A stretch of DNA of 64,000 nt from Escherichia phage vB_EcoM_FB: sequence record MT682711.1; one strand, given 5' to 3'. Positions 6,840-51,182 of the stretch are shown here, piece by piece; the first letter of the stretch is position 1; the number at the start of each line of letters is the position of its first letter. The notes beneath the pieces are model-generated. The model was not told where the DNA came from and ran no database searches. It was given only the letters and a program-made list of their open reading frames with translations. Position numbers and translations under genes: made by a program.

Positions 6840-7506
6840 AAGCCCTCTTAAACCTATCAACTAGTGGTCTAAAATTATTTATCGTATATGGATAACCTAG
6901 TTCACAGCATTTGCGCCAGAATTTAGAATAACTAGGGCGTCCTTCCTTAATCCAAAGTTCATGGAACTCATCATATAATACATATGTTGGATTTTTAGCA
7001 AACTTGGAATAATTCTCTATAGAGTAATATTCTTTGTTCTTTTTACTTTTGGCCTCTCTAACTTCAGGATTAGCATTATACTCTTTATGGATTCGACGCA
7101 TCATTTCTCGATGCTCTTCATTTTCCCAAGACTTTTTAATAGAGTTGGAAACCCGCTCTTTATATTCAGGGTCCTGCCAGCGTTCGGTAACTTCTTTAGA
7201 CTGTTCTTCAAGTCTTTCCGGTGTCGGAGGAGCATAACCACCTATACCACCAGGTTTCATATTGACGCAGTTAGTTATTTCGGACATGGCATTTTCTACC
7301 AAAAGCTCTTCAAATTCAAAAGCAAGCTCACTTGTCTCAAAATAACATAAGGCCTCTATATTAAAAGAGCATTTCCCTGAGGCCTTAGCATCTTCTACGA
7401 ATTTGCCACTACCGACATACCCGTCATCTATAAATCCGGTGTGTTTACCGAAATAGTAATAAGTATCATTTTCGGATTTTATAGTGGTCATATAACAATA
7501 GTGCAT
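6811..7506 (-). CDS. GIY-YIG-like (Seg-type) homing endonuclease, motif partly degenerate
   Basis: [20 protein letters not shown] and [10 protein letters not shown] parallel the intact Seg-like protein at 44737; overlaps gene 55 start. Confidence 0.5.
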
Positions 7507-37720: not shown

Positions 37721-37984
37721 TTATTTCATATTATTGAAATAATCTTCCGCATCAAAATCGTTATCATGATAAACTTTGGTAGACGATTTAGCATAACCTT
37801 CAGCTGAGAACATATTAACCACAACCTTAATTGTATACCATTGTCCGTCTTCATTACCCATTACAGCATACGTTTCATATACCGGATGTTCAGGACCGAT
37901 AACCTTAATATCGTTAACAGTAGCACCAAATTCTTCAGGAACGCATTTCATAAAGAAATTAAACAATTCACCGTAATTATCCAT
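37721..37984 (-). CDS. hypothetical protein
   Basis: Track start GTG; ATG at 37984 with AAGGAG upstream. Confidence 0.45.
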   Translation of the reverse strand: MDNYGELFNFFMKCVPEEFGATVNDIKVIGPEHPVYETYAVMGNEDGQWYTIKVVVNMFSAEGYAKSSTKVYHDNDFDAEDYFNNMK

Positions 37985-38008
37985 TTTACTCTCCTTCACT
38001 CTGTTGTT

Positions 38009-38048
38009 TTGATAGGTCTATAGTATCATGTTTAAAGGAGGTGTAAAC
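38009..38048 (-). promoter_or_regulatory. early promoter-hairpin cassette (PeSL-like)
   Basis: TTGATAGGTCTATAGTATCA..TGTAAAC. Confidence 0.5.
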
Positions 38049-38071
38049 ATCTTTTTAAACTTTTTAGAAAC

Positions 38072-38099
38072 AAAAAAGGCCCAACCTTTCGGAAGGGCC
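38072..38099 (-). terminator. rho-independent terminator candidate closing the tRNA region
   Basis: GGCCC..GGGCC hairpin followed on the minus strand by six U. Confidence 0.5.
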
Positions 38100-38149
38100 T
38101 TTAACCTAGGGTAACCTTGTCGGGGTTTCACCTGCTAGGCAAGTGTTTG

Positions 38150-38240
38150 TACGATACGCCGGGATTCGAACCCGGTTATTAAGTAGTTGACGCTACTTAA
38201 TATTTTAAAAGGCCATATCTCGACCATATCCGAACGTTCC
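38150..38240 (-). ncRNA. structured small RNA candidate with tRNA-like T-arm
   Basis: Minus-sense GGTTCGAATCC T-loop between CCGGG/CCCGG and a 9-bp hairpin; no canonical acceptor pairing found. Confidence 0.25.
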
Positions 38241-38409
38241 GTCAAAAACGCTACTCGGCTTACGGCAAAGATATTTCCTCGAATCGATAATTCTGTGCGC
38301 CGTTTAAGCTGTGATATAAGGGGTCATTAACAAAACATAAAGATTTATTAATGTCGGTCCTTAAACAGGGAACTTCAGTCCGACGACTTACCGGTAGCGA
38401 CCCGGTTTC

Positions 38410-38760
38410 TTAATATTCTTTTAAAGAATCAATATATTCACGGCGTTTACGCCACAAATCAATTGCTTCATACGCGGATTCAGCATTTCGAATTAGCCGG
38501 CATTTATGTAAAGACTTATGATTTTGATATTGTGTAGATAACGGAATTGTATCTAAAAGGTCTTTACGATCAAAATATTCGTAACCATCTAAACCAAATG
38601 AACGATTTTTGAGAAATTGCCAATGACCATATTCGTTTTCGACATAAACATAATCTGCATGCTGATAAAGCAAATTAATTACACGTTCAGAAATAACAGT
38701 ATCATTATGATTAAAATAGAATGTTAAATCATGAACTACTAAATAAACATTACCTTTCAT
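38410..38760 (-). CDS. hypothetical protein
   Basis: 116-codon ATG ORF with GAGGAA upstream, inside the tRNA cluster. Confidence 0.45.
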   Translation of the reverse strand: MKGNVYLVVHDLTFYFNHNDTVISERVINLLYQHADYVYVENEYGHWQFLKNRSFGLDGYEYFDRKDLLDTIPLSTQYQNHKSLHKCRLIRNAESAYEAIDLWRKRREYIDSLKEY

Positions 38761-38778
38761 ATTTTCCTCACTTATAAT

Positions 38779-38854
38779 TGGTCGAGGCAGTAGGGATCGA
38801 ACCTACGACCTAGGACTTAGAAGGTCCTTGCTCTTCCTTCTGAGCTATGCCCCG
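38779..38854 (-). tRNA. tRNA-Arg (anticodon UCU), CCA encoded
   Basis: 76 nt cloverleaf folded by hand: 7-bp acceptor with one G-U, GG in D-loop, anticodon loop CUUCUAA, T-loop TTCGATC. Confidence 0.8.
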
Positions 38855-38857
38855 TAA

Positions 38858-39490
38858 TTAAAATTTCATTTTTCGACCTTTAAACCATCCTTCTGGAATT
38901 GGGTCAGTTTTCTTAATACGTTTAGAAACTTTTTCATCTAATGAATGAATCCACATCATACCAAATTGGGAATTCTTTTCGCCCTGTTGATGTTTATTTC
39001 TGGCGTGAGATTCTTTCATTTTATTAATAGTTTCAGGAGTATGATGCTTATTTAAAAATCTGCTATTATTTAAAAATTTTTCCCTGTATTCAGGAGTTGA
39101 CCACAAGCGTTTAAATACATTTGAACCATGTTTACGATATTTTTCTTGAAGTAAAATATCACTTTTAAAACGTGACTTAAACGATTTAGCTCCTTTTAAA
39201 CTAGCGTCTTTCTTCTGGTTTAGCATCCCAGGAATATTTATATGGTCCCAACCACCTTCACCACCTAATTTCAAATTATAAACATCAGGGCGCTTTAAAA
39301 ACTCTTCAGTCACAATATTCTTTTCTGACTCAAACATAGAGGTTTTATCGTCAAAGAACTCTCTAATATTTCTTTAGAAAAATTTTCTATACCATACTTA
39401 TCTTGGGCTCTTTTTAATAATTTACCAGAACCCATATATCCATCATCTAAATTTTCGGTAGAATGAGCGCCTATATAGATTTTTATTATT
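38858..39490 (-). pseudogene. decayed GIY-YIG (Seg-like) homing endonuclease gene
   Basis: Upstream frame encodes ..[23 protein letters not shown] with no ATG, stop immediately upstream; downstream 159-codon frame continues the homology after a frameshift at GAGAG. Confidence 0.6.
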
Positions 39491-39567
39491 AATTTTATTT
39501 GTTATTTTATAAATGTAATGGAACATAAATATCTCCTATTTCTAAGAGTATTTATGTTCCCAAAATA

Positions 39568-39638
39568 TGGCCCTGGGTGGAATCGAACCACCATCCAGCG
39601 ATTATGAGTCGCTCGCTTGACCGTCCAGCTACAGGGCC
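39568..39638 (-). tRNA. tRNA with CAU anticodon (Met or Ile2 type), CCA not encoded
   Basis: 71 nt: perfect 7-bp acceptor GGCCCTG/CAGGGCC, anticodon loop CTCATAA, T-arm GGTGG-TTCGATT-CCACC. Confidence 0.7.
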
Positions 39639-39699
39639 TTAATTCTATTATGAAAGGCTCTTTGAGGGAAGAACCTTTGGTAATAGAGGGTACTTATTA

Positions 39700-39724
39700 A
39701 TAATAACACACAACTCTTAAAGCA
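39700..39724 (-). promoter_or_regulatory. MotA-box middle promoter candidate upstream of the tRNA cluster
   Basis: Minus strand TGCTTTA, 12 nt, TATTAT. Confidence 0.45.
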
Positions 39725-39733
39725 TATTACTTG

Positions 39734-40114
39734 TTAACCTTCATCAACAATAGTGTGGGTATTGGCATTAACAATTTGCCACCAGTCGAAACGATTAGAA
39801 CCGTATTGAGGCTTATTCTCGTTTTCTTTAATGATATCACGCAGTTCATCTTCAGTCGCGGCCTTTGCGATTAAGTCGGCATAACCGCCACGGGGATAAT
39901 AGTTATCACCAGCAAAGAGTAAAAAGTTTGTTTTAATATTCTTGAATTCTTCAAGAGTAATAACTGTTCCAGATGGTTGGACAATATCTACGTAACTATA
40001 TCCTAATTTCTGGGCTTCATTTACTGCTTCAAGCAGGGTGTCATGGGCCCATCCAATTTGACAATCCGGTTTTTCAGATGGGTTGGCTTGATAATCTGCG
40101 TACACTTTATACAT
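39734..40114 (-). CDS. hypothetical protein
   Basis: Start at ATG 40114 with AGGTGA upstream. Confidence 0.45.
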   Translation of the reverse strand: MYKVYADYQANPSEKPDCQIGWAHDTLLEAVNEAQKLGYSYVDIVQPSGTVITLEEFKNIKTNFLLFAGDNYYPRGGYADLIAKAATEDELRDIIKENENKPQYGSNRFDWWQIVNANTHTIVDEG

Positions 40115-40115
40115 T

Positions 40116-40301
40116 TTACTCACCTTTAGAGATTTTATCCATAACGAAAGAGATTGAACCAATTAAAAATGCCACTACTAAAGAGATTGTATTCTCAGAA
40201 GTTGTAAGCAAATCCAACATGAATCCTGCAAACATACTAAAACTAAAAGTGGTAATAGCAATAAGGGCAGTAGCATTTCTAATTAATTCACAACGTTTCA
40301 T
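40116..40301 (-). CDS. small membrane protein
   Basis: Track start TTG; ATG at 40301 with GGAG upstream. Confidence 0.4.
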   Translation of the reverse strand: MKRCELIRNATALIAITTFSFSMFAGFMLDLLTTSENTISLVVAFLIGSISFVMDKISKGE

Positions 40302-44099: not shown

Positions 44100-44107
44100 T
44101 ATAAATA
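44100..44107 (+). promoter_or_regulatory. late promoter TATAAATA for gene 53
   Basis: Exact TATAAATA 28 nt upstream of gene 53 ATG, GGAGG SD between. Confidence 0.65.
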
Positions 44108-44134: not shown

Positions 44135-44737
44135 ATGCTCTTCTCATTTTTCGATCCTATAAATTACGAATCAAAAACAGTCAAGCCAGATTCCGGCTCA
44201 TTAACTGATGCCGATGTACTGAGCGTACCGATGACTGATATATTTAGAAACTATAAAGAATATTTTGATAAAGTGGCTAAAAATTATACACTTAAAACAT
44301 ATTATATCAGTGGGGCCCCTCGTCCAGAAGAATTAGCCCATCAACTTTATGGTAACGTGCAATTATATTGGATCCTTTTAATGTGTAACAATATCTATGA
44401 CCCTTATTACGGCTGGATTACAGGCCAAGAATCTGCGTATCAAGCAGCTATTCAACGTTATGCTACTGCAGGCGGAAACCAAGTCCTTTATCATGTCAAT
44501 GAAAAGGGTGAGAAATTCTGGAATCTAGTAAATACTCCGGAAAATCCTTATACTTGGTACGATAAAGGTGATACAGAAAAACGTTATCCTCAATATGAAG
44601 GTCCTTTGGCTGCAGTAGATATTTACGAGGACGCCATTCGTAAAAATGAATATAAGCGCGAAATAAAGATTATAGACCCTAATGACATCGAGTCCTTTGT
44701 TTCCGCTTTAATTAGAGAAATGGAGAAGTCACTCTAA
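44135..44737 (+). CDS. 53: baseplate wedge protein gp53
   Basis: MLFSFFDPINYESKTV.. N-terminus and 200 aa as recalled for T4 gp53. Confidence 0.8.
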   Translation: MLFSFFDPINYESKTVKPDSGSLTDADVLSVPMTDIFRNYKEYFDKVAKNYTLKTYYISGAPRPEELAHQLYGNVQLYWILLMCNNIYDPYYGWITGQESAYQAAIQRYATAGGNQVLYHVNEKGEKFWNLVNTPENPYTWYDKGDTEKRYPQYEGPLAAVDIYEDAIRKNEYKREIKIIDPNDIESFVSALIREMEKSL

Positions 44738-45249
44738 TGTTTTATTACGTCTATAAAATAACCAATATAATTAATGGTAAATTTTATATCGGTGCTCATA
44801 GTACATCAAATATGGATGACGGTTATATGGGCTCAGGTAAATTAATTAAACGCGCTATACTAAAATACGGCATTGAAAATTTCAAAAAAGAAATATTAAA
44901 ATTTGTTGATTCTAAAAAAGAAATGTATGAACTCGAAAAAGAACTTGTTGTCCTTACTGAAAATTCATACAATTTAAAACCGGGCGGTTCCGGTGGGTTT
45001 TTAAAACATGATAACTTTAAAGGCAGGTCCCATAGTCAGAAAACCAAAGATATTATGAGCGCTAATAACTCAGGCAAAAACAATCCTATGTATGGTAGAA
45101 AACGAGACCAACACGGAGAAAAAGCACCTAATTATGGTAAAAAGTGCTCTGAGGCTAAAAGAAAATTACTTTCTGAAAAATCTAAATCCTATTTTGAAAA
45201 CCTTCAAACCATAACTAAAAAATCTCGGCTTTGGTCCTACATCGGTTGA
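44737..45249 (+). CDS. GIY-YIG homing endonuclease (Seg-like)
   Basis: FYYVYKITNIINGKFYIGAHS GIY-YIG motif, [14 protein letters not shown]-like Gly/Lys repeats. Confidence 0.8.
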   Translation: MFYYVYKITNIINGKFYIGAHSTSNMDDGYMGSGKLIKRAILKYGIENFKKEILKFVDSKKEMYELEKELVVLTENSYNLKPGGSGGFLKHDNFKGRSHSQKTKDIMSANNSGKNNPMYGRKRDQHGEKAPNYGKKCSEAKRKLLSEKSKSYFENLQTITKKSRLWSYIG

Positions 45250-45369
45250 AACTAGATATGTATCAAGACATATTAAAAAGCTAGGATTAGATTTTTATAA
45301 ATTTAATCGTGATATAACAGAAACTAATGTTTCCATAGTTAGAAATATTTTAGAACAAAGGAAAGCGCT

Positions 45370-47157
45370 ATGATTAACATGTCTGATAATGTAAGTTGGT
45401 TCGTCGGTGTAGTTGAAGACCGAATGGACCCGCTCCAACAAGGCCGAGTACGCGTGCGCGTATGGGGTATGCATCCTTACGAAAAGGTCCAAGGTCCTGT
45501 AAAAGGCCTTCGTACAGAGGATTTACCGTGGATGTCCGTATTAATGCCTACATCTTCTGCCTCTGTTTCTGGTATCCAAACCGCTATGACTGGTATGGTT
45601 CCAGGTACTCAGGTTTATGGGCACTTTCTTGATAAGTGGAAATTAAACGGGCTTGTCCTCGGTACATATGGTTCCGCTTCAAGACAAAAGGCTAATCCTA
45701 ATGAAGGTTTTAGTGACCCGACAGGTCAATACCCACTTTATTTGGGTAATGATGCTGCAGCACTAAACCGAGGTGGTGAAGTTGGATACGATGCCACTTC
45801 CAACGTAATACAAGATGCAAACACCGATGTAGGTATTAATCCTGATGGTTTAGATTTGAGCCAGGTTAAGCCTGATGATAATCCTAATTTCACAATAGAA
45901 AACATGCTTCACCGTGATGAAGGGCTTCGACTGAAGGTATATTGGGACACCGAAGGATACCCTACTATCGGTATAGGTCACCTTATTACACCACAACCTA
46001 TTAGAGATATGAATCAAATAAACAAAATATTATCTAATCAGGTAGGACGAGAAGTTAAAGGTAACCCTGGTGCAATATCAATGGACGAGGTTTCTAAATT
46101 ATTCCAAGACGACCTTAAAAAAGTCCAAAACGATATAGGCAGGCATAGTGTTGTAGGTCCTGTTTATAATAAAGAAAACCGTTCGAGACAAATGGCTCTT
46201 GAAAACATGGCTTTCCAAATGGGATTGGGCGGCTTGGCTAAATTCCGTGGAATGCTTAGTGCAATGCTAATAGGCGATTATAAAAAGGCATTTGAGGAAG
46301 CTCGTAATTCAGTATGGTTTAACCAAACTAAAGGCCGTGCATCAAGGGTGTCAATGATTATCCTCACAGGTAACATGGAATCATATGGTATTATGGCCCC
46401 TAAAGAAAGGTCATTTAATGGCCGTTCGTATAGAATGATTCAAACCTTTGTGGCCCCTACAAATTCAGACCCTGCCGACCCGTGGACTCCAGAAGACACA
46501 AGGATTCTTTTTAAAGAACCTGATTCTAGTTATAAAGGCGAATATCCATATGTCCAAACCATGCAAACTGAAGGCGGGCATATCCAAGAATTCGATAATA
46601 CTCCAGGGCAAGAACGATACCGTTTAATCCATCCTACCGGTAGTTATGAAGAAGTTGCTCCTGATGGACGTAAAACTTCTAAGACGGTAGCCGATGGTTA
46701 TTATATGACCCAAGGCGATTCAAATACTTATGTTGGTGGTAATAATAAAGTCAACGTTGGTGGCGATGAAACCTATTATAATATGGCAAACGTGCGCCGT
46801 CAAACTGATGGGTCTGAAAGCATTCATATTCGAGGGAATGAAACCAAAACTGTAGAAGGTAATGGAACTCTGCTTGTTAAAGGAAATGTTAAAATAGTTA
46901 TTATGGGTACTGCTGATATAACTGTTGAACAAGAAGCATATATTACGGTTGAAAAAGATACAACAGTTAATGTCAACCAGAATGCAGATATAAGCGTTAA
47001 ACAAAAGGCCACAATCAATGCTCAAAATATGGATGTAAATGTCGAACAAGATTTAAATTTTGCAGCGACGAACATTAATTTAAACGCATCAAATACTGTG
47101 CATATGGATGGCGGTTCATTAGCTAAAGTATCTGGTGGCAACGTACAGGTCGGTTAA
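45370..47157 (+). CDS. 5: baseplate central spike gp5 with lysozyme domain
   Basis: N-terminal OB-like region, internal lysozyme block (HRDEGLRLKVYWDTEGYPTIGIGHL), C-terminal V-N-V repeat beta-helix. Confidence 0.85.
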   Translation: MINMSDNVSWFVGVVEDRMDPLQQGRVRVRVWGMHPYEKVQGPVKGLRTEDLPWMSVLMPTSSASVSGIQTAMTGMVPGTQVYGHFLDKWKLNGLVLGTYGSASRQKANPNEGFSDPTGQYPLYLGNDAAALNRGGEVGYDATSNVIQDANTDVGINPDGLDLSQVKPDDNPNFTIENMLHRDEGLRLKVYWDTEGYPTIGIGHLITPQPIRDMNQINKILSNQVGREVKGNPGAISMDEVSKLFQDDLKKVQNDIGRHSVVGPVYNKENRSRQMALENMAFQMGLGGLAKFRGMLSAMLIGDYKKAFEEARNSVWFNQTKGRASRVSMIILTGNMESYGIMAPKERSFNGRSYRMIQTFVAPTNSDPADPWTPEDTRILFKEPDSSYKGEYPYVQTMQTEGGHIQEFDNTPGQERYRLIHPTGSYEEVAPDGRKTSKTVADGYYMTQGDSNTYVGGNNKVNVGGDETYYNMANVRRQTDGSESIHIRGNETKTVEGNGTLLVKGNVKIVIMGTADITVEQEAYITVEKDTTVNVNQNADISVKQKATINAQNMDVNVEQDLNFAATNINLNASNTVHMDGGSLAKVSGGNVQVG

Positions 47158-47158
47158 T

Positions 47159-49222
47159 ATGAATTACTACGATAAAGTTGATGAAGTGGTAGGGACTGTA
47201 ACAAGTCCCTGTGATGACGCAGTAGGACCCGGTGAATATCGCCGGGTTAAATGGGAATTATATAACCCAACAGGTGCTTTTATTCAACCTGGGAATGGCG
47301 TTGAATGGGATACCGAGATTATTCCACTAGCTACACATTTATACACACAAAATCCATTTGGTAATAAGTCCGAAACTTTTCCTGCACCTCCCCCACCGGA
47401 AGATGGAACAAGTCAAGGTATCTGGTGTGCTAAACTCGGAATATTCTTTATTACGCAATTGGATTTAGAAAATTATGTAGAATCGATTGGTGCAACTCTT
47501 TTGCCCGGTAATGATTGGTACGGCGCTGATTTATCAAAATCTGTATTGTATAAAACATCTATTGAATATGATATGTATCGCATCGAAAACTGTGGCGGTG
47601 TATGGACATCACAAGGCCCCAGAATGGACCCCAGGACGATGATTGCAGTTACGGCTGATTATCATATGTATGTCAACTTTAACGGCCTTGGTGACTCCCG
47701 CAGGGCTTATTTGAAGTACTATGAGACAAAACCTTGTACTTATGTTGGACTGGTATTAAATCTAGATGTTGATACGAGTATCCCAGGAACTCCGATTCCG
47801 GGACCGGTATCCATCGGGTCTTTACCGCCAGAAATAACCGGGCGAGCCAGGGCAATAGGCTGTGTTCCTTTTACAGCGGAATTCCCTTACAACGGATTGA
47901 CCAATGCGATTATGGCTTCATGGAATACATCTAGGAATTCATTCAAATTATATTGGGATATGCTCCCTGGATGGCCATCATCTGGTGGAACCGATTGGGA
48001 AAAATTCTTCGATTCTGGTTATAGTAAGCTATCGGTCGCAATGGAAGAGCTAGGCAACTCAGCTGTTGCTATGTGTCAATATGTTCAGCAAATGGCTTTT
48101 CTTGCATTTAAAGATGCCATATCACAGGTCTTGAATATTGTTGGCGGTGGGTGGGACTTACTTAAAAGCTTTTTACCCTCGATTACTATTATGGGCATGA
48201 CTATTGACCTAGAAGACCTCTGCACTTCAGGTGATGGTGTACAGAAATTAAAAGAAGCATGGAAAAACTTTAATTTAGAAGAAACCATCCAATCGATTTA
48301 TTCTGCCATTGGGTCTGCATACGATTATTCGGTTGAACGCGTCAAGATGTATTCGCGTGACCTTATTGATGCAATTACAGACTTGTATGACTGGGCCTGG
48401 TCTCAATTGCTTATGGCTGGTGTTGCATTATCAAAACTGTGTGTAGACCTCGCTCAAATATGGAGTATGCCTCCTATAGTTCCGAACCCAGTTTGGAGCG
48501 TTATTACTGCGGTCAAGGAAATGATGAAGCAAGTTAAACCACTGGACATGATAATGAGCGGTAACTTTCCAGGATTCACAGCATCAGATGTTTATCAAAT
48601 GGTTATGGAAAAGGTAGACCAGAAAATAGACGAAGCTTATGCAATGATTGAGGCTCTTAAAACCCAGGCACTCAATCTGTGGAATGAGATTAAGCTCAAA
48701 AAGCAAGAAGTACAAAAACAAGCTATTGAATTTAAACAATATCTTTCAGGAATGTACGAAAAAGTTACAGACGAGCTAACTGCTCAGAAGGAAGCCGCAT
48801 TAGCACAAGCTGAAGCTGCACTCGAACTTTTAAAGAATAAATATAATCAGATTAAGAACTCTATTACCGAAAGTCAAACCTCCGTTTCTGATGTATTAGA
48901 TATGGCTTTAGAAGAATTCAAAAAACTTCCTATTGTGGCTCAAATGGAAGAACTTCTCGGTATGCTCGGAGCTACTGTAGATGATATCATGGTTATATAC
49001 GAGAACTCAGTAACTAAAGCAAAATCTTTATATCACGAATTTACTGATGGTTCCAGGTCAATGAAAGACTTGTGCAAATCAATGTATAACCAAATATCAA
49101 CATTATCCTTAAGTAAGGTGGTACAATGGATTAATAAGATGCTGGGAATATTCGGTTTAACGATTGCATTTCCATCCCTTTCCATTTGCATACCTTGTTT
49201 AGAATCTCCTACTAGGAATTAA
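47159..49222 (+). CDS. large protein of unknown function between genes 5 and 6
   Basis: 687-codon ORF; ATG overlaps gp5 stop (TAATATG), ends 1 nt before gene 6 ATG; no motif recognised. Confidence 0.6.
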   Translation: MNYYDKVDEVVGTVTSPCDDAVGPGEYRRVKWELYNPTGAFIQPGNGVEWDTEIIPLATHLYTQNPFGNKSETFPAPPPPEDGTSQGIWCAKLGIFFITQLDLENYVESIGATLLPGNDWYGADLSKSVLYKTSIEYDMYRIENCGGVWTSQGPRMDPRTMIAVTADYHMYVNFNGLGDSRRAYLKYYETKPCTYVGLVLNLDVDTSIPGTPIPGPVSIGSLPPEITGRARAIGCVPFTAEFPYNGLTNAIMASWNTSRNSFKLYWDMLPGWPSSGGTDWEKFFDSGYSKLSVAMEELGNSAVAMCQYVQQMAFLAFKDAISQVLNIVGGGWDLLKSFLPSITIMGMTIDLEDLCTSGDGVQKLKEAWKNFNLEETIQSIYSAIGSAYDYSVERVKMYSRDLIDAITDLYDWAWSQLLMAGVALSKLCVDLAQIWSMPPIVPNPVWSVITAVKEMMKQVKPLDMIMSGNFPGFTASDVYQMVMEKVDQKIDEAYAMIEALKTQALNLWNEIKLKKQEVQKQAIEFKQYLSGMYEKVTDELTAQKEAALAQAEAALELLKNKYNQIKNSITESQTSVSDVLDMALEEFKKLPIVAQMEELLGMLGATVDDIMVIYENSVTKAKSLYHEFTDGSRSMKDLCKSMYNQISTLSLSKVVQWINKMLGIFGLTIAFPSLSICIPCLESPTRN

Positions 49223-49223
49223 A

Positions 49224-51182
49224 ATGGCTACTCCTACGAATTACCAATTAACAAGAACCGTTAACGCTATCCCAAAAGTATTTGTGGGAGCTACGTTTGA
49301 AGAGATTAAAAAGAATATTATTGATTGGCTTTCTAGCCAGGACGAATTTAAGGATTACGATTTCGTTGGTTCGCGAATGAATATCCTGATTGACATGTTA
49401 GCTTACAACACCCTGTATATGCAGCAGTTTGCTAATACCGCGGTATATGAATCTTTCATCGGTACCGCTAACTTGCGTTCCTCCGTCGTCCAGGCTGCAC
49501 AGGATAACGGCTATTTGCCAAGTTCTAAATCAGCAGCCAAAACAAGTATCATGTTGACCTGTACCCAAGCCCTGAATGAAAAGAATATTCGTATCCCGCG
49601 TGGTACTAAATTCTTGGCCTATGCCCGTGATACTTCAGCAGACCCGTATGCTTTTGTTACCACGGAAAACGTTATTGCCGTACGTGATGTTAATAACCAA
49701 TATCTTCCTATCGTATCTTTAGCACAAGGTCGTATTATCCGTACTGAACTTAAGTATGACCCTAAAACTCCTATTCTTATTCGTGACCCGGATATTGATA
49801 GACAGGAAGTTAAACTTTATGTCGATGGCGCAGAATGGACTAACTGGACTAATAAATCCATGGTTCATGCTGGTAGTACATCAACAATTTACTATATGCG
49901 TGAAACCGTAGATGGTAATACTGAATTCTTCTTTGGTGAAGGTGTTGCTGAAAAATCAGTTGCAGGTGGGGTATTAGAAGCTAATTATATTGGTGGTTTA
50001 AAACCTGTTAAAGATGCTACCATTGTTATAGAATACCTTCGTACAGATGGTGAAGTTGCTAACGGGGCAGTGGACTTTAGTTATGCGGATTCTTTGGCAT
50101 ATATTACGGTTGAAAAAATTACAGAAAACTACGATGAAAACCCGGATTATGTAGGTGCTGACGGTGGTGGTGACCCTGAAGATATTGAACGTATTCGTGA
50201 ACTTGCTGTAGTTAAACGTGAAGCCCAGATGCGTGCTGTAACCGGTACAGATTATGATACATTCGTTTCGGAGCGATTTGGTTCTATTGTACAAGCAGTA
50301 CAAACCTTTACAGACCCAAATAAACCAGGTTATGCCTTTGTTACCATTAAACCTAAATCAGGATTGTATTTGACTGCGGTTCAACGCGAAGATATCCAAA
50401 ATTATCTTTCAGAATTTAACTTGGCACCTATTACCCCTTCGGTTATTTCTCCTGACTACTTGTTCTTGAAGCATAAAATTAAGGTTTCATATGCACTGAA
50501 CAAATTACAGGAATCCGAACAATGGTTAACGGCTCAAATCCTTTCCCAAATAGACCGTTATTATATTAACGAAGTTGAAATATTCAACCACGGATTTGCC
50601 AAGTCTAAAATGCTGACTTATATTGATAATGCAGACCACAGTATCCTTGGCTCTTCGGCTACGGTAACAATGGTTCGCGAGGTATTAAACTTCTTCAAAA
50701 CACCTGAAGCGGGTATTAAATACTATAATCAATACACCAACCGTTCTGTAACTTCTAGTGAATTTGAGTTCGTCCCAACAAACGTATCGGATGTTGTTAA
50801 ATCTTACAACGTACGTATTGTTGCCACAGATAAAGACGAACGAGGCGATGGTAAAATGGTTATAGGTCCTTTCCGACCTGGCGATGTAATTGAAAACCAA
50901 TACATCCAACCTTACACCGGAGATGACTTTGATAAAATGGCAGCGCCTGCAGACCAATCAGTCTACTATGTTATTGGCGAAATTGATTATTACTCAGATT
51001 TTATTTTCTGGGATATTGCCGCAATAGGCCTTACTTCCGACCGTTTTGAAGTCCAGTCTATTGAACTGTATGCAGGGCCAGACCAAGACAACATCTTTAC
51101 CAAAGACGGTTCTTTAATCGTATTTGAAGATGACCTTCGTCCTCAGTACACAACTATAGAGTTGGAACCAATTACAATATAA
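49224..51182 (+). CDS. 6: baseplate wedge protein gp6
   Basis: MATPTNYQLTRTVNAIPKVFVGATFEEIKKNI..LAYNTLYMQQF matches T4 gp6 N-terminus as recalled. Confidence 0.85.
   Translation: MATPTNYQLTRTVNAIPKVFVGATFEEIKKNIIDWLSSQDEFKDYDFVGSRMNILIDMLAYNTLYMQQFANTAVYESFIGTANLRSSVVQAAQDNGYLPSSKSAAKTSIMLTCTQALNEKNIRIPRGTKFLAYARDTSADPYAFVTTENVIAVRDVNNQYLPIVSLAQGRIIRTELKYDPKTPILIRDPDIDRQEVKLYVDGAEWTNWTNKSMVHAGSTSTIYYMRETVDGNTEFFFGEGVAEKSVAGGVLEANYIGGLKPVKDATIVIEYLRTDGEVANGAVDFSYADSLAYITVEKITENYDENPDYVGADGGGDPEDIERIRELAVVKREAQMRAVTGTDYDTFVSERFGSIVQAVQTFTDPNKPGYAFVTIKPKSGLYLTAVQREDIQNYLSEFNLAPITPSVISPDYLFLKHKIKVSYALNKLQESEQWLTAQILSQIDRYYINEVEIFNHGFAKSKMLTYIDNADHSILGSSATVTMVREVLNFFKTPEAGIKYYNQYTNRSVTSSEFEFVPTNVSDVVKSYNVRIVATDKDERGDGKMVIGPFRPGDVIENQYIQPYTGDDFDKMAAPADQSVYYVIGEIDYYSDFIFWDIAAIGLTSDRFEVQSIELYAGPDQDNIFTKDGSLIVFEDDLRPQYTTIELEPITI

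What the first reader, a model, noticed from the sequence alone, without database searches (positions are those of the whole stretch)
47159..49222. Large unassigned ORF wedged between baseplate hub gene 5 and wedge gene 6
A 687-codon ORF starts 1 nt after the gp5 stop (TAATATG junction) and ends 1 nt before the gene 6 ATG, so it is tightly coupled into the late baseplate operon. In T4 this interval carries only small genes (5.1, and 5.4 encoding the PAAR spike tip). I recognise no motif: the N-terminal third is Cys-containing with a PAPPPP stretch, the C-terminal half has a long heptad-like charged helix (..KLKKQEVQKQAIEFKQ..AQKEAALAQAEAALELLKNKYNQIK..), and the extreme C-terminus is hydrophobic (GIFGLTIAFPSLSICIPCL). 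No PAAR-type repeats are visible, so the spike-tip gene is either replaced here or encoded elsewhere. Its position suggests a virion-associated or ejected protein of unknown role.
Basis: partly seen in the sequence, partly recalled or inferred. Interest (0 to 1): 0.8.

Follow-up and report, generated by a model that had tools for sequence, protein, structure and literature searches.

The report
Large non-PAAR phage spike-tip protein
This 687-residue gene is the counterpart, in a JS98/Bp7-type coliphage, of phage RB43 orf205w, a large protein of unknown fold that a 2025 preprint proposes sits on the tip of the tail's cell-puncturing spike in place of T4's small PAAR tip protein, so it is a real and interesting gene but not a new discovery.

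Summary
It has no Pfam or NCBIfam match. It is a full-length member of PHROG 5296, found in about 215 T4-like phage genomes and always directly downstream of gene 5.

It is the orthologue (44% identity, full length) of RB43ORF205w. Mattenberger et al. (bioRxiv 2025) propose that protein as an unusual, large spike-tip protein. They base this on the absence of gene 5.4 and on a 17.7 Å cryo-EM map showing a bigger tip.

My tests support that reading:
- Three complete genomes that carry the ORF have neither gp5.4 nor gp5.1.
- The ORF family shows no profile similarity to either protein.
- The last ~60 residues of gp5 form a distinct tip type (…TGG(T/N)VQVG). This tip co-occurs with the ORF with almost identical genus counts (204 vs 215 records). 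It is kept even in members at 31-33% identity.
- The window's gp5 is a mosaic, with a T4-like body (66% identity) and an RB43-type tip.

Verdict: new member of a recently proposed kind. Its location in the virion and its mechanism are still unproven.

The parts
47159..49222 (+). Gene X: 687-aa orthologue of RB43ORF205w (PHROG 5296), the putative large non-PAAR spike-tip protein
   Evidence: ORF confirmed. phrog_5296 matches with E=0 over residues 1-682. It is 99.7% identical to Bp7 EpBp7_0254 and 43-44% identical to RB43 over 99% of its length. AF2 model has pLDDT 87 and pTM 0.77.
47159..48034 (+). N-terminal alpha/beta domain (residues 1 to ~290; well-ordered core ~21-200). It carries the invariant residues C18, R28, R29, W50, the WYGAD motif at 120-124, E136, E143-N144-G146 and C193. 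It is a candidate adaptor for the gp5 tip.
48035..49135 (+). All-helical domain (residues ~293-665). It has long helices at 294-328, 398-435, 475-529, 538-575 and 631-664. Conserved blocks are LNIVGGGWDLLKSFLP, IWSMPPxVPNPxW and SGNFPGFTA. The helical hairpin at 481-600 is variable.
49142..49219 (+). Conserved hydrophobic C-terminal tail (residues ~662-687, LGIFGLTIAFPSLSICIPCL...), modelled as a beta-strand at 673-682
   Evidence: The Kyte-Doolittle 19-residue mean is 1.87, the highest in the protein. The strand appears in the model. G666, F671 and P679 are invariant.
46888..47157 (+). X-type C-terminal tip of the gp5 beta-helix (last ~90 residues, ending ...GGSLAKVSGGNVQVG). This is the proposed docking platform for gene X.
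   Evidence: Identity to T4 gp5 falls from 66% in the body to 29% over the last 90 aa and 7% over the last 30 aa. Identity to RB43 gp5 over the last 30 aa is 50%. The motif is shared by all X-carrying phages examined. The tip peptide matches 204 records with the same genus counts as X.
45370..47157 (+). Gene 5: baseplate central spike and tail lysozyme (595 aa)
   Evidence: Pfam finds Gp5_OB, Phage_lysozyme, Gp5_trimer_C and Gp5_C. It is 64% identical to T4 gp5.
44100..44107 (+). T4-type late promoter consensus TATAAATA upstream of gene 53. It probably drives the 53-(seg)-5-X-6-7 late transcript.
   Evidence: Exact match found. It is the only + strand match between 40000 and 56000. This is a consensus match only; no transcription was shown.
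49224..51182 (+). Gene 6: baseplate wedge subunit. Its start lies 1 nt after the stop of X.
   Evidence: Five Gp6 Pfam domains. It is 69% identical to T4 gp6.

Best explanation
[quoted passage not shown] In this lineage it is the spike-tip protein, and it replaces the PAAR protein gp5.4 (and the co-travelling gp5.1) without being related to them.

It is made late, from the same transcript as gp53, gp5 and gp6, and its translation is coupled to that of gp5. It docks onto a lineage-specific gp5 tip (…TGG(T/N)VQVG). This step is inferred. The densely conserved N-terminal alpha/beta domain is the more likely adaptor, and the conserved hydrophobic C-terminal strand is the alternative.

On sheath contraction it would be the first tail component driven into the outer membrane, and it would be carried into the periplasm with the spike. 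This is inferred by analogy with P2 gpV and T4 gp5.4. Its ~400-residue helical domain is amphipathic and weakly tape-measure-like or apolipoprotein-like. That domain is then proposed to act on the envelope, either by destabilising the outer membrane or by engaging the inner membrane ahead of the tape-measure protein and the DNA. This last step is speculative.
For: Shown here:
1. X is a full-length orthologue of RB43ORF205w.
2. X lies immediately downstream of gene 5 in every genus examined: Dhakavirus, Bragavirus, Nanhuvirus, Pseudotevenvirus and Slopekvirus, plus two divergent metagenomic members at 31-33% identity. In LPCS28 it stays with gene 5 although gene 6 is not adjacent.
3. X and the PAAR pair are mutually exclusive. 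No gp5.4 or gp5.1 is found in the window, nor by tblastn or profile HMM in the whole genomes of Bp7, Klebsiella p4515 and Enterobacter ENT3. For comparison, T4 gp5.4 alone detects homologues in 1422 phage records, out to Campylobacter, Rhizobium and Salicola phages.
4. The gp5 tip co-varies with X. All X-carrying phages end with ...L(T/A)K(I/V)(T/S)G(G/A)(T/N)VQVG, whereas three of the four PAAR-type gp5 proteins examined end with ...GSRI(D/N)(I/V/L)G; the fourth, Acinetobacter Melin, ends differently (...TAPRYNMV). The two most divergent members end with ...FTGGTVSVG and ...FTGGTVVVG. The tip peptide finds 204 records with genus counts equal to those of X, apart from Klebsiella at 103 vs 113.
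5. The window's gp5 is a mosaic, 66% identical to T4 in the body but only 7% over the last 30 aa, against 50% to RB43 over those 30 aa.
6. A late-promoter consensus lies upstream of the operon, and the gaps between genes are 1 nt.

From the literature (PMC12407873): RB43, RB16 and Lw1 lack gene 5.4. The RB43 baseplate map (17.7 Å) shows a larger tip into which an orf205w model fits. T4 gp5.4 is a monomeric tip that is dispensable for assembly but needed on deep-rough LPS hosts. P2 gpV ends up in the periplasm.
Against: - No direct evidence places this protein, or any family member, in virions at residue-level resolution.
- The RB43 assignment is called 'possibly' by its own authors, and their co-expression of the protein with the gp5 beta-helix fragment failed (PMC12407873).
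- I found no virion mass-spectrometry detection. The Morganella MP1 virion table lists nothing between gp2 and gp6, so gp5 itself is missing and the table is uninformative.
- A 77-kDa, mainly helical cap is the opposite of a 'sharpening' tip, so the analogy with PAAR function may not hold.
Confidence: 0.7

Rival explanations
1. X is a non-virion assembly factor or chaperone. It would help fold or cap the X-type gp5 beta-helix, or help assemble the hub, and would then be released, as T4 gp51 and gp57A are for other parts. The enlarged RB43 tip would then be something else.
For: Co-inheritance with the gp5 tip fits a dedicated chaperone as well as it fits a bound partner. No mass-spectrometry detection was found. 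The RB43 authors could not obtain a complex with the gp5 fragment (PMC12407873).
Against: RB43 particles carry extra mass at the tip, and no other candidate gene occupies the locus (PMC12407873). These genomes have no PAAR protein to make up a tip. A 77-kDa two-domain protein, conserved over its whole length at ~45% identity between genera, is large for a chaperone of a 90-residue segment. The T4 gp5 beta-helix folds without such a factor (background knowledge).
Confidence: 0.12
2. X is an ejected internal tail protein: a second, tape-measure-like or pilot protein that is stored in the tube or hub lumen and released into the periplasm, not an external cap on gp5.
For: PHROG tape-measure families give weak hits (phrog_305 E=4e-4, phrog_8462 E=5.5e-3). 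Of the eight sub-family-level hits (P0071-P0078), five of the seven scanned are bona fide tape-measure proteins; P0071 and P0074 are not, and P0076 was not scanned. Several GenBank records annotate X as a tape measure.
Against: These phages keep a normal gp29 tape measure (Bp7 EpBp7_0211). X does not resemble it (best BLASTP E=0.04). Lumen storage would not explain why X tracks the outermost 60 residues of gp5 rather than gp27, gp29 or gp48. The RB43 map differs from T4 at the tip (PMC12407873). The tape-measure similarity is confined to amphipathic helical repeats. A similar match occurs in a bacterial chromosomal protein in a non-phage context.
Confidence: 0.1
3. X is a divergent PAAR-type protein with a large C-terminal extension, like the PAAR-toxin fusions of type VI secretion systems.
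For: X has the same genomic slot as gp5.4 and the same inferred partner, the gp5 tip. PAAR proteins with extension domains are well known in T6SS (background knowledge; PMC12407873 introduction).
Confidence: 0.03

Closest known systems
RB43ORF205w (YP_239181.1), the putative spike-tip protein of Escherichia phage RB43 (Mattenberger et al., bioRxiv 2025, PMC12407873); PHROG 5296
   Same: Homologous over the full length (43-44% identity, 99% coverage). The size is the same (687 vs 690 aa). The architecture is the same: an N-terminal alpha/beta part followed by an all-helical part. The position is the same, directly after gene 5 and before gene 6. Both genomes lack genes 5.1 and 5.4. Both have the same gp5 tip motif ending in VQVG.
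   Different: The window's protein sits in a Tevenvirinae (Dhakavirus) backbone whose gp5 body, gp53 and gp6 are 62-70% identical to T4. RB43 is a Pseudotevenvirus. Here the gp5 gene is visibly mosaic. The preprint reports a low-confidence AlphaFold model, whereas the model here, built with a 54-sequence alignment, is confident (pLDDT 87, pTM 0.77). Neither protein has been characterised biochemically.
T4 gp5.4 and PAAR-repeat spike-tip proteins (Pfam PF05488; PDB 4KU0, 4JIV)
   Same: The genomic slot between genes 5 and 6 is the same. The inferred partner, the C-terminal platform of the gp5 beta-helix, is the same. Both are expressed late. The presumed role, the distal-most element of the membrane-attacking spike, is the same.
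   Different: There is no sequence or fold similarity. X is seven times larger (687 vs 97 aa), is mostly helical, and cannot form a sharp cone. It also displaces gp5.1. Its gp5 partner has a different tip sequence.
Phage tape-measure proteins (for example PHROGs 305, 8462, 167; Pfam PhageMin_Tail) and apolipoprotein-like helical repeats
   Same: X has long amphipathic helices. Tape-measure proteins make up most of the weak out-of-family sequence hits, over residues ~330-665. Tape-measure proteins are also ejected into the periplasm.
   Different: All scores are far below family level. X has no PhageMin_Tail domain. The phage has its own gp29. X is compactly folded in the model (pTM 0.77) rather than extended. 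X is encoded next to the spike gene, not next to the tube and hub genes.
Alpha-helical pore-forming toxins and translocators (Hbl-B/ClyA family, YaxB/XaxA, IpaB)
   Different: Unrelated coiled coils (dynein stalk, prefoldin, designed bundles) score the same or higher. There is no clear hydrophobic head or tongue. This is a resemblance in shape only.

Membership tests
RB43 orf205w-type large spike-tip proteins (PHROG 5296) | Full-length sequence homology to RB43ORF205w / the PHROG 5296 profile | tested here: met
   phrog_5296 matches with E=0 and 1196 bits over residues 1-682 of 687. tblastn to RB43 gives 43.3% identity over residues 1-682 with E=5e-174. Global identity is 44.3%. The locus tag RB43ORF205w was confirmed.
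RB43 orf205w-type large spike-tip proteins (PHROG 5296) | Encoded immediately downstream of the gp5 spike gene, occupying the T4 5.1-5.4 slot | tested here: met
   The gap after the gp5 stop is 1 nt. The same order is seen in Bp7, RB43, KP1, phiP4-3, LPCS28, phT4A and two metagenomic contigs.
RB43 orf205w-type large spike-tip proteins (PHROG 5296) | The genome lacks a gene 5.4 (PAAR) orthologue | tested here: met
   There is no hit in the window or in the whole Bp7 genome. Bp7 is the nearest complete relative, not the same phage. The remainder of this phage's own genome is outside the window.
RB43 orf205w-type large spike-tip proteins (PHROG 5296) | The partner gp5 has the divergent RB43-type C-terminal beta-helix tip | tested here: met
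   The window's gp5 ends with ...SLAKVSGGNVQVG. Its last 30 aa are 50% identical to RB43 and 7% identical to T4.
RB43 orf205w-type large spike-tip proteins (PHROG 5296) | Physically located at the tip of the spike in the virion | not testable with these tools
   The only support is the 17.7 Å RB43 map in PMC12407873. No data exist for this phage.
PAAR-repeat spike-tip proteins (PF05488; T4 gp5.4) | PAAR-domain sequence signature | tested here: not met
   There is no Pfam hit for the full protein or for the N-terminal domain. hhalign of a gp5.4 profile against the X family gives 0.1% probability.
PAAR-repeat spike-tip proteins (PF05488; T4 gp5.4) | Compact ~100-residue all-beta conical fold | tested here: not met
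Tail length tape-measure proteins (as annotated in several GenBank records) | Significant match to a tape-measure family, and being the phage's length-determining protein | tested here: not met
   Only sub-threshold PHROG tape-measure hits are found (E=4e-4 and 5.5e-3). Bp7 encodes a separate gp29. BLASTP of X against that gp29 gives E=0.04.
ClyA/Hbl/YaxAB alpha-pore-forming toxins | Family-level sequence or fold match, including a hydrophobic membrane-insertion element | tested here: inconclusive

The most novel reading that the evidence does not exclude
X is a cargo-type, non-PAAR spike tip. Its N-terminal domain, of novel fold, would clamp onto a dedicated gp5 platform. Its tape-measure-like amphipathic helical domain would be delivered into the periplasm, where it would unfold and insert into a membrane. 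That would open or prime the route for DNA, or neutralise an envelope-level barrier. If so, a phage tail would use its spike tip as an effector-delivery device, as T6SS PAAR-toxin fusions do, but with an unrelated adaptor.
Probability: 0.2. Interest if true: 0.8.

Novelty: new member of a known kind. Interest (0 to 1): 0.5.

Why it matters
How contractile tails get through the Gram-negative envelope after the spike punctures the outer membrane is still an open question. The spike tip is its least understood part. PAAR tips were thought to be nearly universal among spikes that lack an apex domain.

This family shows that a large group of T4-like phages use a completely different tip. The group includes the Slopekvirus Klebsiella phages and the Enterobacter, Cronobacter and Proteus phages now being developed for therapy. 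Their tip is a 77-kDa protein with an N-terminal domain of unknown fold.

The co-inherited gp5-tip/X module defined here gives a precise construct for testing the interaction: the last ~90 residues of gp5 plus X. It also provides a natural swap experiment. Dhakavirus gp5 is T4-like except for its tip, so exchanging the module with T4's tip + 5.1 + 5.4 should be feasible. T4 gp5.4 matters on deep-rough LPS hosts, so the tip type could influence host range or resistance to envelope-based defences.

Tried and rejected
- **Pfam, NCBIfam and PDB sequence searches.** These returned only sub-threshold coiled-coil noise.
- **X as the tape measure.** Rejected because the phage has its own gp29 and X shows no real similarity to it.
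- **Remote homologues.** The exhaustive HMMER search of 1.84 billion representatives found only 8 full-length clusters, all from T4-like contexts where I could check. The weak outliers were mostly tape-measure or apolipoprotein-like proteins. The best non-phage outlier, P0074 (hhalign probability 93%), lies in a bacterial chromosome next to WD40 and FHA genes. I treated it as helical-repeat similarity and did not pursue it.
- **Virion proteomics in the literature.** The Morganella MP1 table lacks gp5 as well as anything between gp2 and gp6. The Klebsiella ValerieMcCarty phages are Jiaodavirus, which is gp5.4-type. The KP15/KP27 and phiEap-3 papers contain no mass spectrometry. The JS98 genome paper is not held in the library.
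- **Recent foreign origin.** Not supported. GC and GC3 match the neighbours. X diverges between genera about as much as gp5 and gp6 do.

Not done:
- A Pfam PAAR/DUF4150 scan of every small ORF of Bp7.
Full report
**Observation.** The ORF is exactly as described. Gene 5 ends with TAA at 47155-47157, one T follows, and the ATG is at 47159. The ORF stops with TAA at 49220-49222, one A follows, and the gene 6 ATG is at 49224. It encodes 687 aa, about 76.7 kDa, with pI 4.7.

The neighbours are confirmed. gp53 lies at 44135-44737. A GIY-YIG/NUMOD3 homing endonuclease lies at 44737-45249. gp5 lies at 45370-47157 and has Gp5_OB, lysozyme and Gp5_C domains. gp6 and gp7 follow. The only + strand T4-type late-promoter consensus (TATAAATA) between 40 and 56 kb is at 44100, just upstream of gene 53. 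X is therefore most simply read as part of the late 53-5-X-6-7 transcript. This is a consensus match, not proof of transcription.

**Source of the window.** The window is collinear with Escherichia phage Bp7 (Dhakavirus, Tevenvirinae) at 80-99% nucleotide identity over aligned blocks. X is 99.7% identical to Bp7 EpBp7_0254, which is annotated 'hypothetical protein'.

**Family and distribution.** X has no Pfam or NCBIfam family and no homologue of solved structure by sequence. It matches PHROG 5296 (function unknown) end to end. tblastn finds full-length homologues in 215 phage records: Klebsiella 113, Escherichia 26, Enterobacter 20, Cronobacter 18, Citrobacter 13, Proteus 7 and others.

An exhaustive HMMER profile search of 1.84 billion cluster representatives finds only eight full-length clusters. 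The family is therefore narrow and confined to T4-like phages.

In every locus I inspected, the gene directly follows gene 5. This holds for Dhakavirus, Pseudotevenvirus RB43, Slopekvirus, Bragavirus and Nanhuvirus. It also holds for the two most divergent metagenomic members, which are 31-33% identical. In Cronobacter phage LPCS28 the gene after X is not gene 6, so the linkage is to gene 5.

**Replacement of the PAAR tip.** In T4 the 5-6 interval holds 5.1, segC, 5.3 and 5.4. gp5.1 and gp5.4 are both present in all five gp5.4-type T4-likes I examined. In T4, Acinetobacter Melin, Klebsiella R3_1 and Vibrio D506 the order is gp5 -> gp5.1 -> gp5.4. In Aeromonas SW69-9 the gp53-gp5-gp5.1 block is inverted relative to gp5.4-gp6. 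In T4, Melin, R3_1 and SW69-9 gp6 follows gp5.4.

T4 gp5.4 alone detects homologues in 1422 phage records, out to Campylobacter, Rhizobium and Salicola phages. It finds nothing in the window and nothing in the complete Bp7 genome.

I built profile HMMs of gp5.4 and gp5.1 and ran them without filters on all six-frame ORFs of three complete X-carrying genomes: Bp7, Klebsiella p4515 and Enterobacter ENT3. They give only noise, with E >= 0.2. The positive controls in that run were members of the training alignments.

Profile-profile comparison shows no relationship between the X family and gp5.4 or gp5.1 (probabilities 0.1% and 0.2%). X is therefore a non-homologous replacement of the gp5.1 + gp5.4 pair.

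**Co-inheritance with a special gp5 tip.** I aligned gp5 from five X-carrying phages and four PAAR-type phages. The last ~60-90 residues fall into separate classes. All X-carrying spikes end with ...L(T/A)K(I/V)(T/S)G(G/A)(T/N)VQVG. Three of the four PAAR-type spikes (T4, Klebsiella R3_1, Aeromonas SW69-9) end with ...GSRI(D/N)(I/V/L)G, and Acinetobacter Melin ends differently (...TAPRYNMV).

The two most divergent family members are preceded by spikes ending with ...FTGGTVSVG and ...FTGGTVVVG. One of these is a 389-aa gp5 that lacks the lysozyme domain altogether.

A tblastn search with the window's last 60 gp5 residues finds 204 records. The genus counts are identical to those of X: Escherichia 26, Enterobacter 20, Cronobacter 18, Citrobacter 13, Proteus 7, Salmonella 4, Shigella 3, Pseudotevenvirus 2 and Raoultella 2. 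The one exception is Klebsiella, at 103 vs 113.

The window's gp5 is a mosaic. It is 66% identical to T4 gp5 over residues 1-480. Identity falls to 29% over the last 90 residues and 7% over the last 30. Against RB43 gp5 the figures are 48% over the body and 50% over the last 30. The switch occurs near residue 500-520. The Pfam Gp5_trimer_C match also stops there, at residue 518. gp6 is T4-like from its first residue.

The unit of inheritance is therefore the gp5 tip plus X. This is what one expects if the two make physical contact.

**Structure.** With a 54-sequence alignment, AlphaFold2 gives a confident model with mean pLDDT 87 and pTM 0.77. It has three parts:
- An N-terminal alpha/beta region, residues 1 to ~290.
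- A helical region, residues ~294-665, with helices of 35-55 residues.
- A C-terminal hydrophobic beta-strand, residues 673-682.

Conservation is densest in three places: the N-terminal core (the WYGAD motif at 120-124, the ENxGG motif at 143-147, and invariant C18 and C193), the helical blocks at 291-350 and 398-480, and the last 55 residues. The 481-600 helical hairpin is the most variable part.

[quoted passage not shown] It makes the following points about the RB43 gene:
- RB43, RB16 and Lw1 lack gene 5.4.
- The 5.1-5.4 locus is occupied by orf205w, which encodes a ~690-residue protein that is alpha/beta for the first ~220 residues and helical thereafter.
- The RB43 and T4 gp5 proteins diverge sharply over their last 60 residues.
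- A 17.7 Å RB43 baseplate map shows a larger tip, into which a low-confidence AlphaFold model of orf205w can be fitted.
- Co-expression with a gp5 beta-helix fragment failed.

I confirmed that the RB43 homologue of X is RB43ORF205w. The same paper shows three further things. T4 gp5.4 is a monomeric tip. It is dispensable for assembly but needed for fitness and for infecting deep-rough LPS mutants. The P2 spike ends up in the periplasm.

**Mechanism, and how far each step is supported.**
- Shown: X is a conserved late-operon gene. It replaces 5.1 and 5.4 and is inherited as a module with the gp5 tip.
- Supported by the literature for an orthologue: extra mass sits at the spike tip.
- Inferred: X docks on the gp5 C-terminal platform and is delivered to the envelope and periplasm with the spike.
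- Speculative: the helical domain acts on a membrane.

The support for the last step is thin. The hydrophobicity is only moderate (helix 417-435 has a Kyte-Doolittle mean of 1.5, and the C-terminal 662-680 segment has 1.87). The PHROG tape-measure hits are weak. Of the eight out-of-family hits of the X profile, five of the seven scanned are tape-measure proteins. A comparable match also occurs in a bacterial chromosomal protein in a non-phage context. The similarity may therefore reflect amphipathic helical repeats rather than common descent. X is not the tape measure. Bp7 has its own gp29, and X does not resemble it.

**Rivals.**
- A dedicated, non-virion chaperone for the X-type gp5 tip would explain the co-inheritance. 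It would not explain the enlarged RB43 tip or the absence of any PAAR protein.
- An internal, ejected tape-measure-like protein would not explain why X tracks the outermost residues of gp5.
- A divergent PAAR fusion is rejected by both sequence and fold tests.

I found no virion proteomics that bears on the question. The Morganella MP1 table lists nothing between gp2 and gp6, so gp5 itself is missing. The other proteomic papers I checked concern gp5.4-type phages or contain no mass spectrometry.

**Verdict.** The gene is not a new kind. It is the Dhakavirus member of the RB43 orf205w family, already proposed at preprint level as a novel large spike tip. It is annotated 'hypothetical', or wrongly 'tape measure', in the databases.

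- The demonstration that the gp5 tip and X form one co-inherited module across the whole family.
- The mosaic gp5 of this lineage.
- The loss of gp5.1 together with gp5.4.
- A confident model showing an N-terminal domain with no known fold.

The protein's location, stoichiometry and mechanism remain untested.

Noticed in passing
window 44737-45249 (+): A 170-aa free-standing GIY-YIG + NUMOD3 homing endonuclease (49% identical to T4 SegC) is inserted between genes 53 and 5. The 627 bp at 44743-45369 are absent from Bp7, where genes 53 and 5 abut. In T4, segC sits on the other side of gene 5, between 5.1 and 5.3.
   Followed up: partly
window ~7234-7500 (-) and ~38858-39523 (-): Two further SegC-like GIY-YIG matches (33% identity by tblastn). 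The second lies in a 2.4-kb stretch (37851-40221) that has no counterpart in Bp7, and it may be N-terminally disrupted.
   Followed up: no
L004 5722-7073; L013 2541-3276; L014 2507-3294; L015 2486-3288; L012 86-580 and 3001-3294: gp5.1 (150-165 aa, function unknown) travels with the PAAR protein gp5.4 in distant T4-likes (T4, Acinetobacter, Klebsiella, Vibrio, Aeromonas). The two are lost together wherever X is present. This suggests gp5.1 is functionally tied to the PAAR tip.
   Followed up: partly
L017 219-1388 and 1393-3624 (JGI metagenome contig): A 389-aa gp5 has the OB domain and beta-helix but no lysozyme domain. It still ends with ...FTGGTVVVG and is followed 4 nt later by a 743-aa divergent X homologue.
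   Followed up: partly
L010 708-4555 (Cronobacter phage LPCS28, Nanhuvirus): gp5 and X are adjacent, but they are followed by a block of small opposite-strand genes instead of gene 6. The usual 5-X-6-7 order is therefore broken here while the 5-X pair is kept.
   Followed up: no
GenBank records (e.g. PP889464.1, PP889503.1, PQ657830.1, PP782000.1): Database annotation of X homologues is inconsistent. Most are 'hypothetical protein', several are 'tail length tape measure protein', and one is 'baseplate hub structural protein'. The tape-measure label is wrong, since these phages have their own gp29.
   Followed up: yes
L011 3516-4973 (Escherichia phage phT4A, 'partial genome'): The X homologue is annotated as 485 aa, and the match covers only query residues 193-682. 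There is a 170-bp gap after gene 5. This could be a truncation or an assembly problem.
   Followed up: no
L027 8001-11765 (3.7-Mb bacterial contig): A 1254-aa bacterial protein (P0074) aligns to X residues 375-671 with hhalign probability 93% (E=2e-7). It lies next to WD40 and FHA genes with no phage context. This is probably amphipathic helical-repeat similarity, but it is unexplained.
   Followed up: partly
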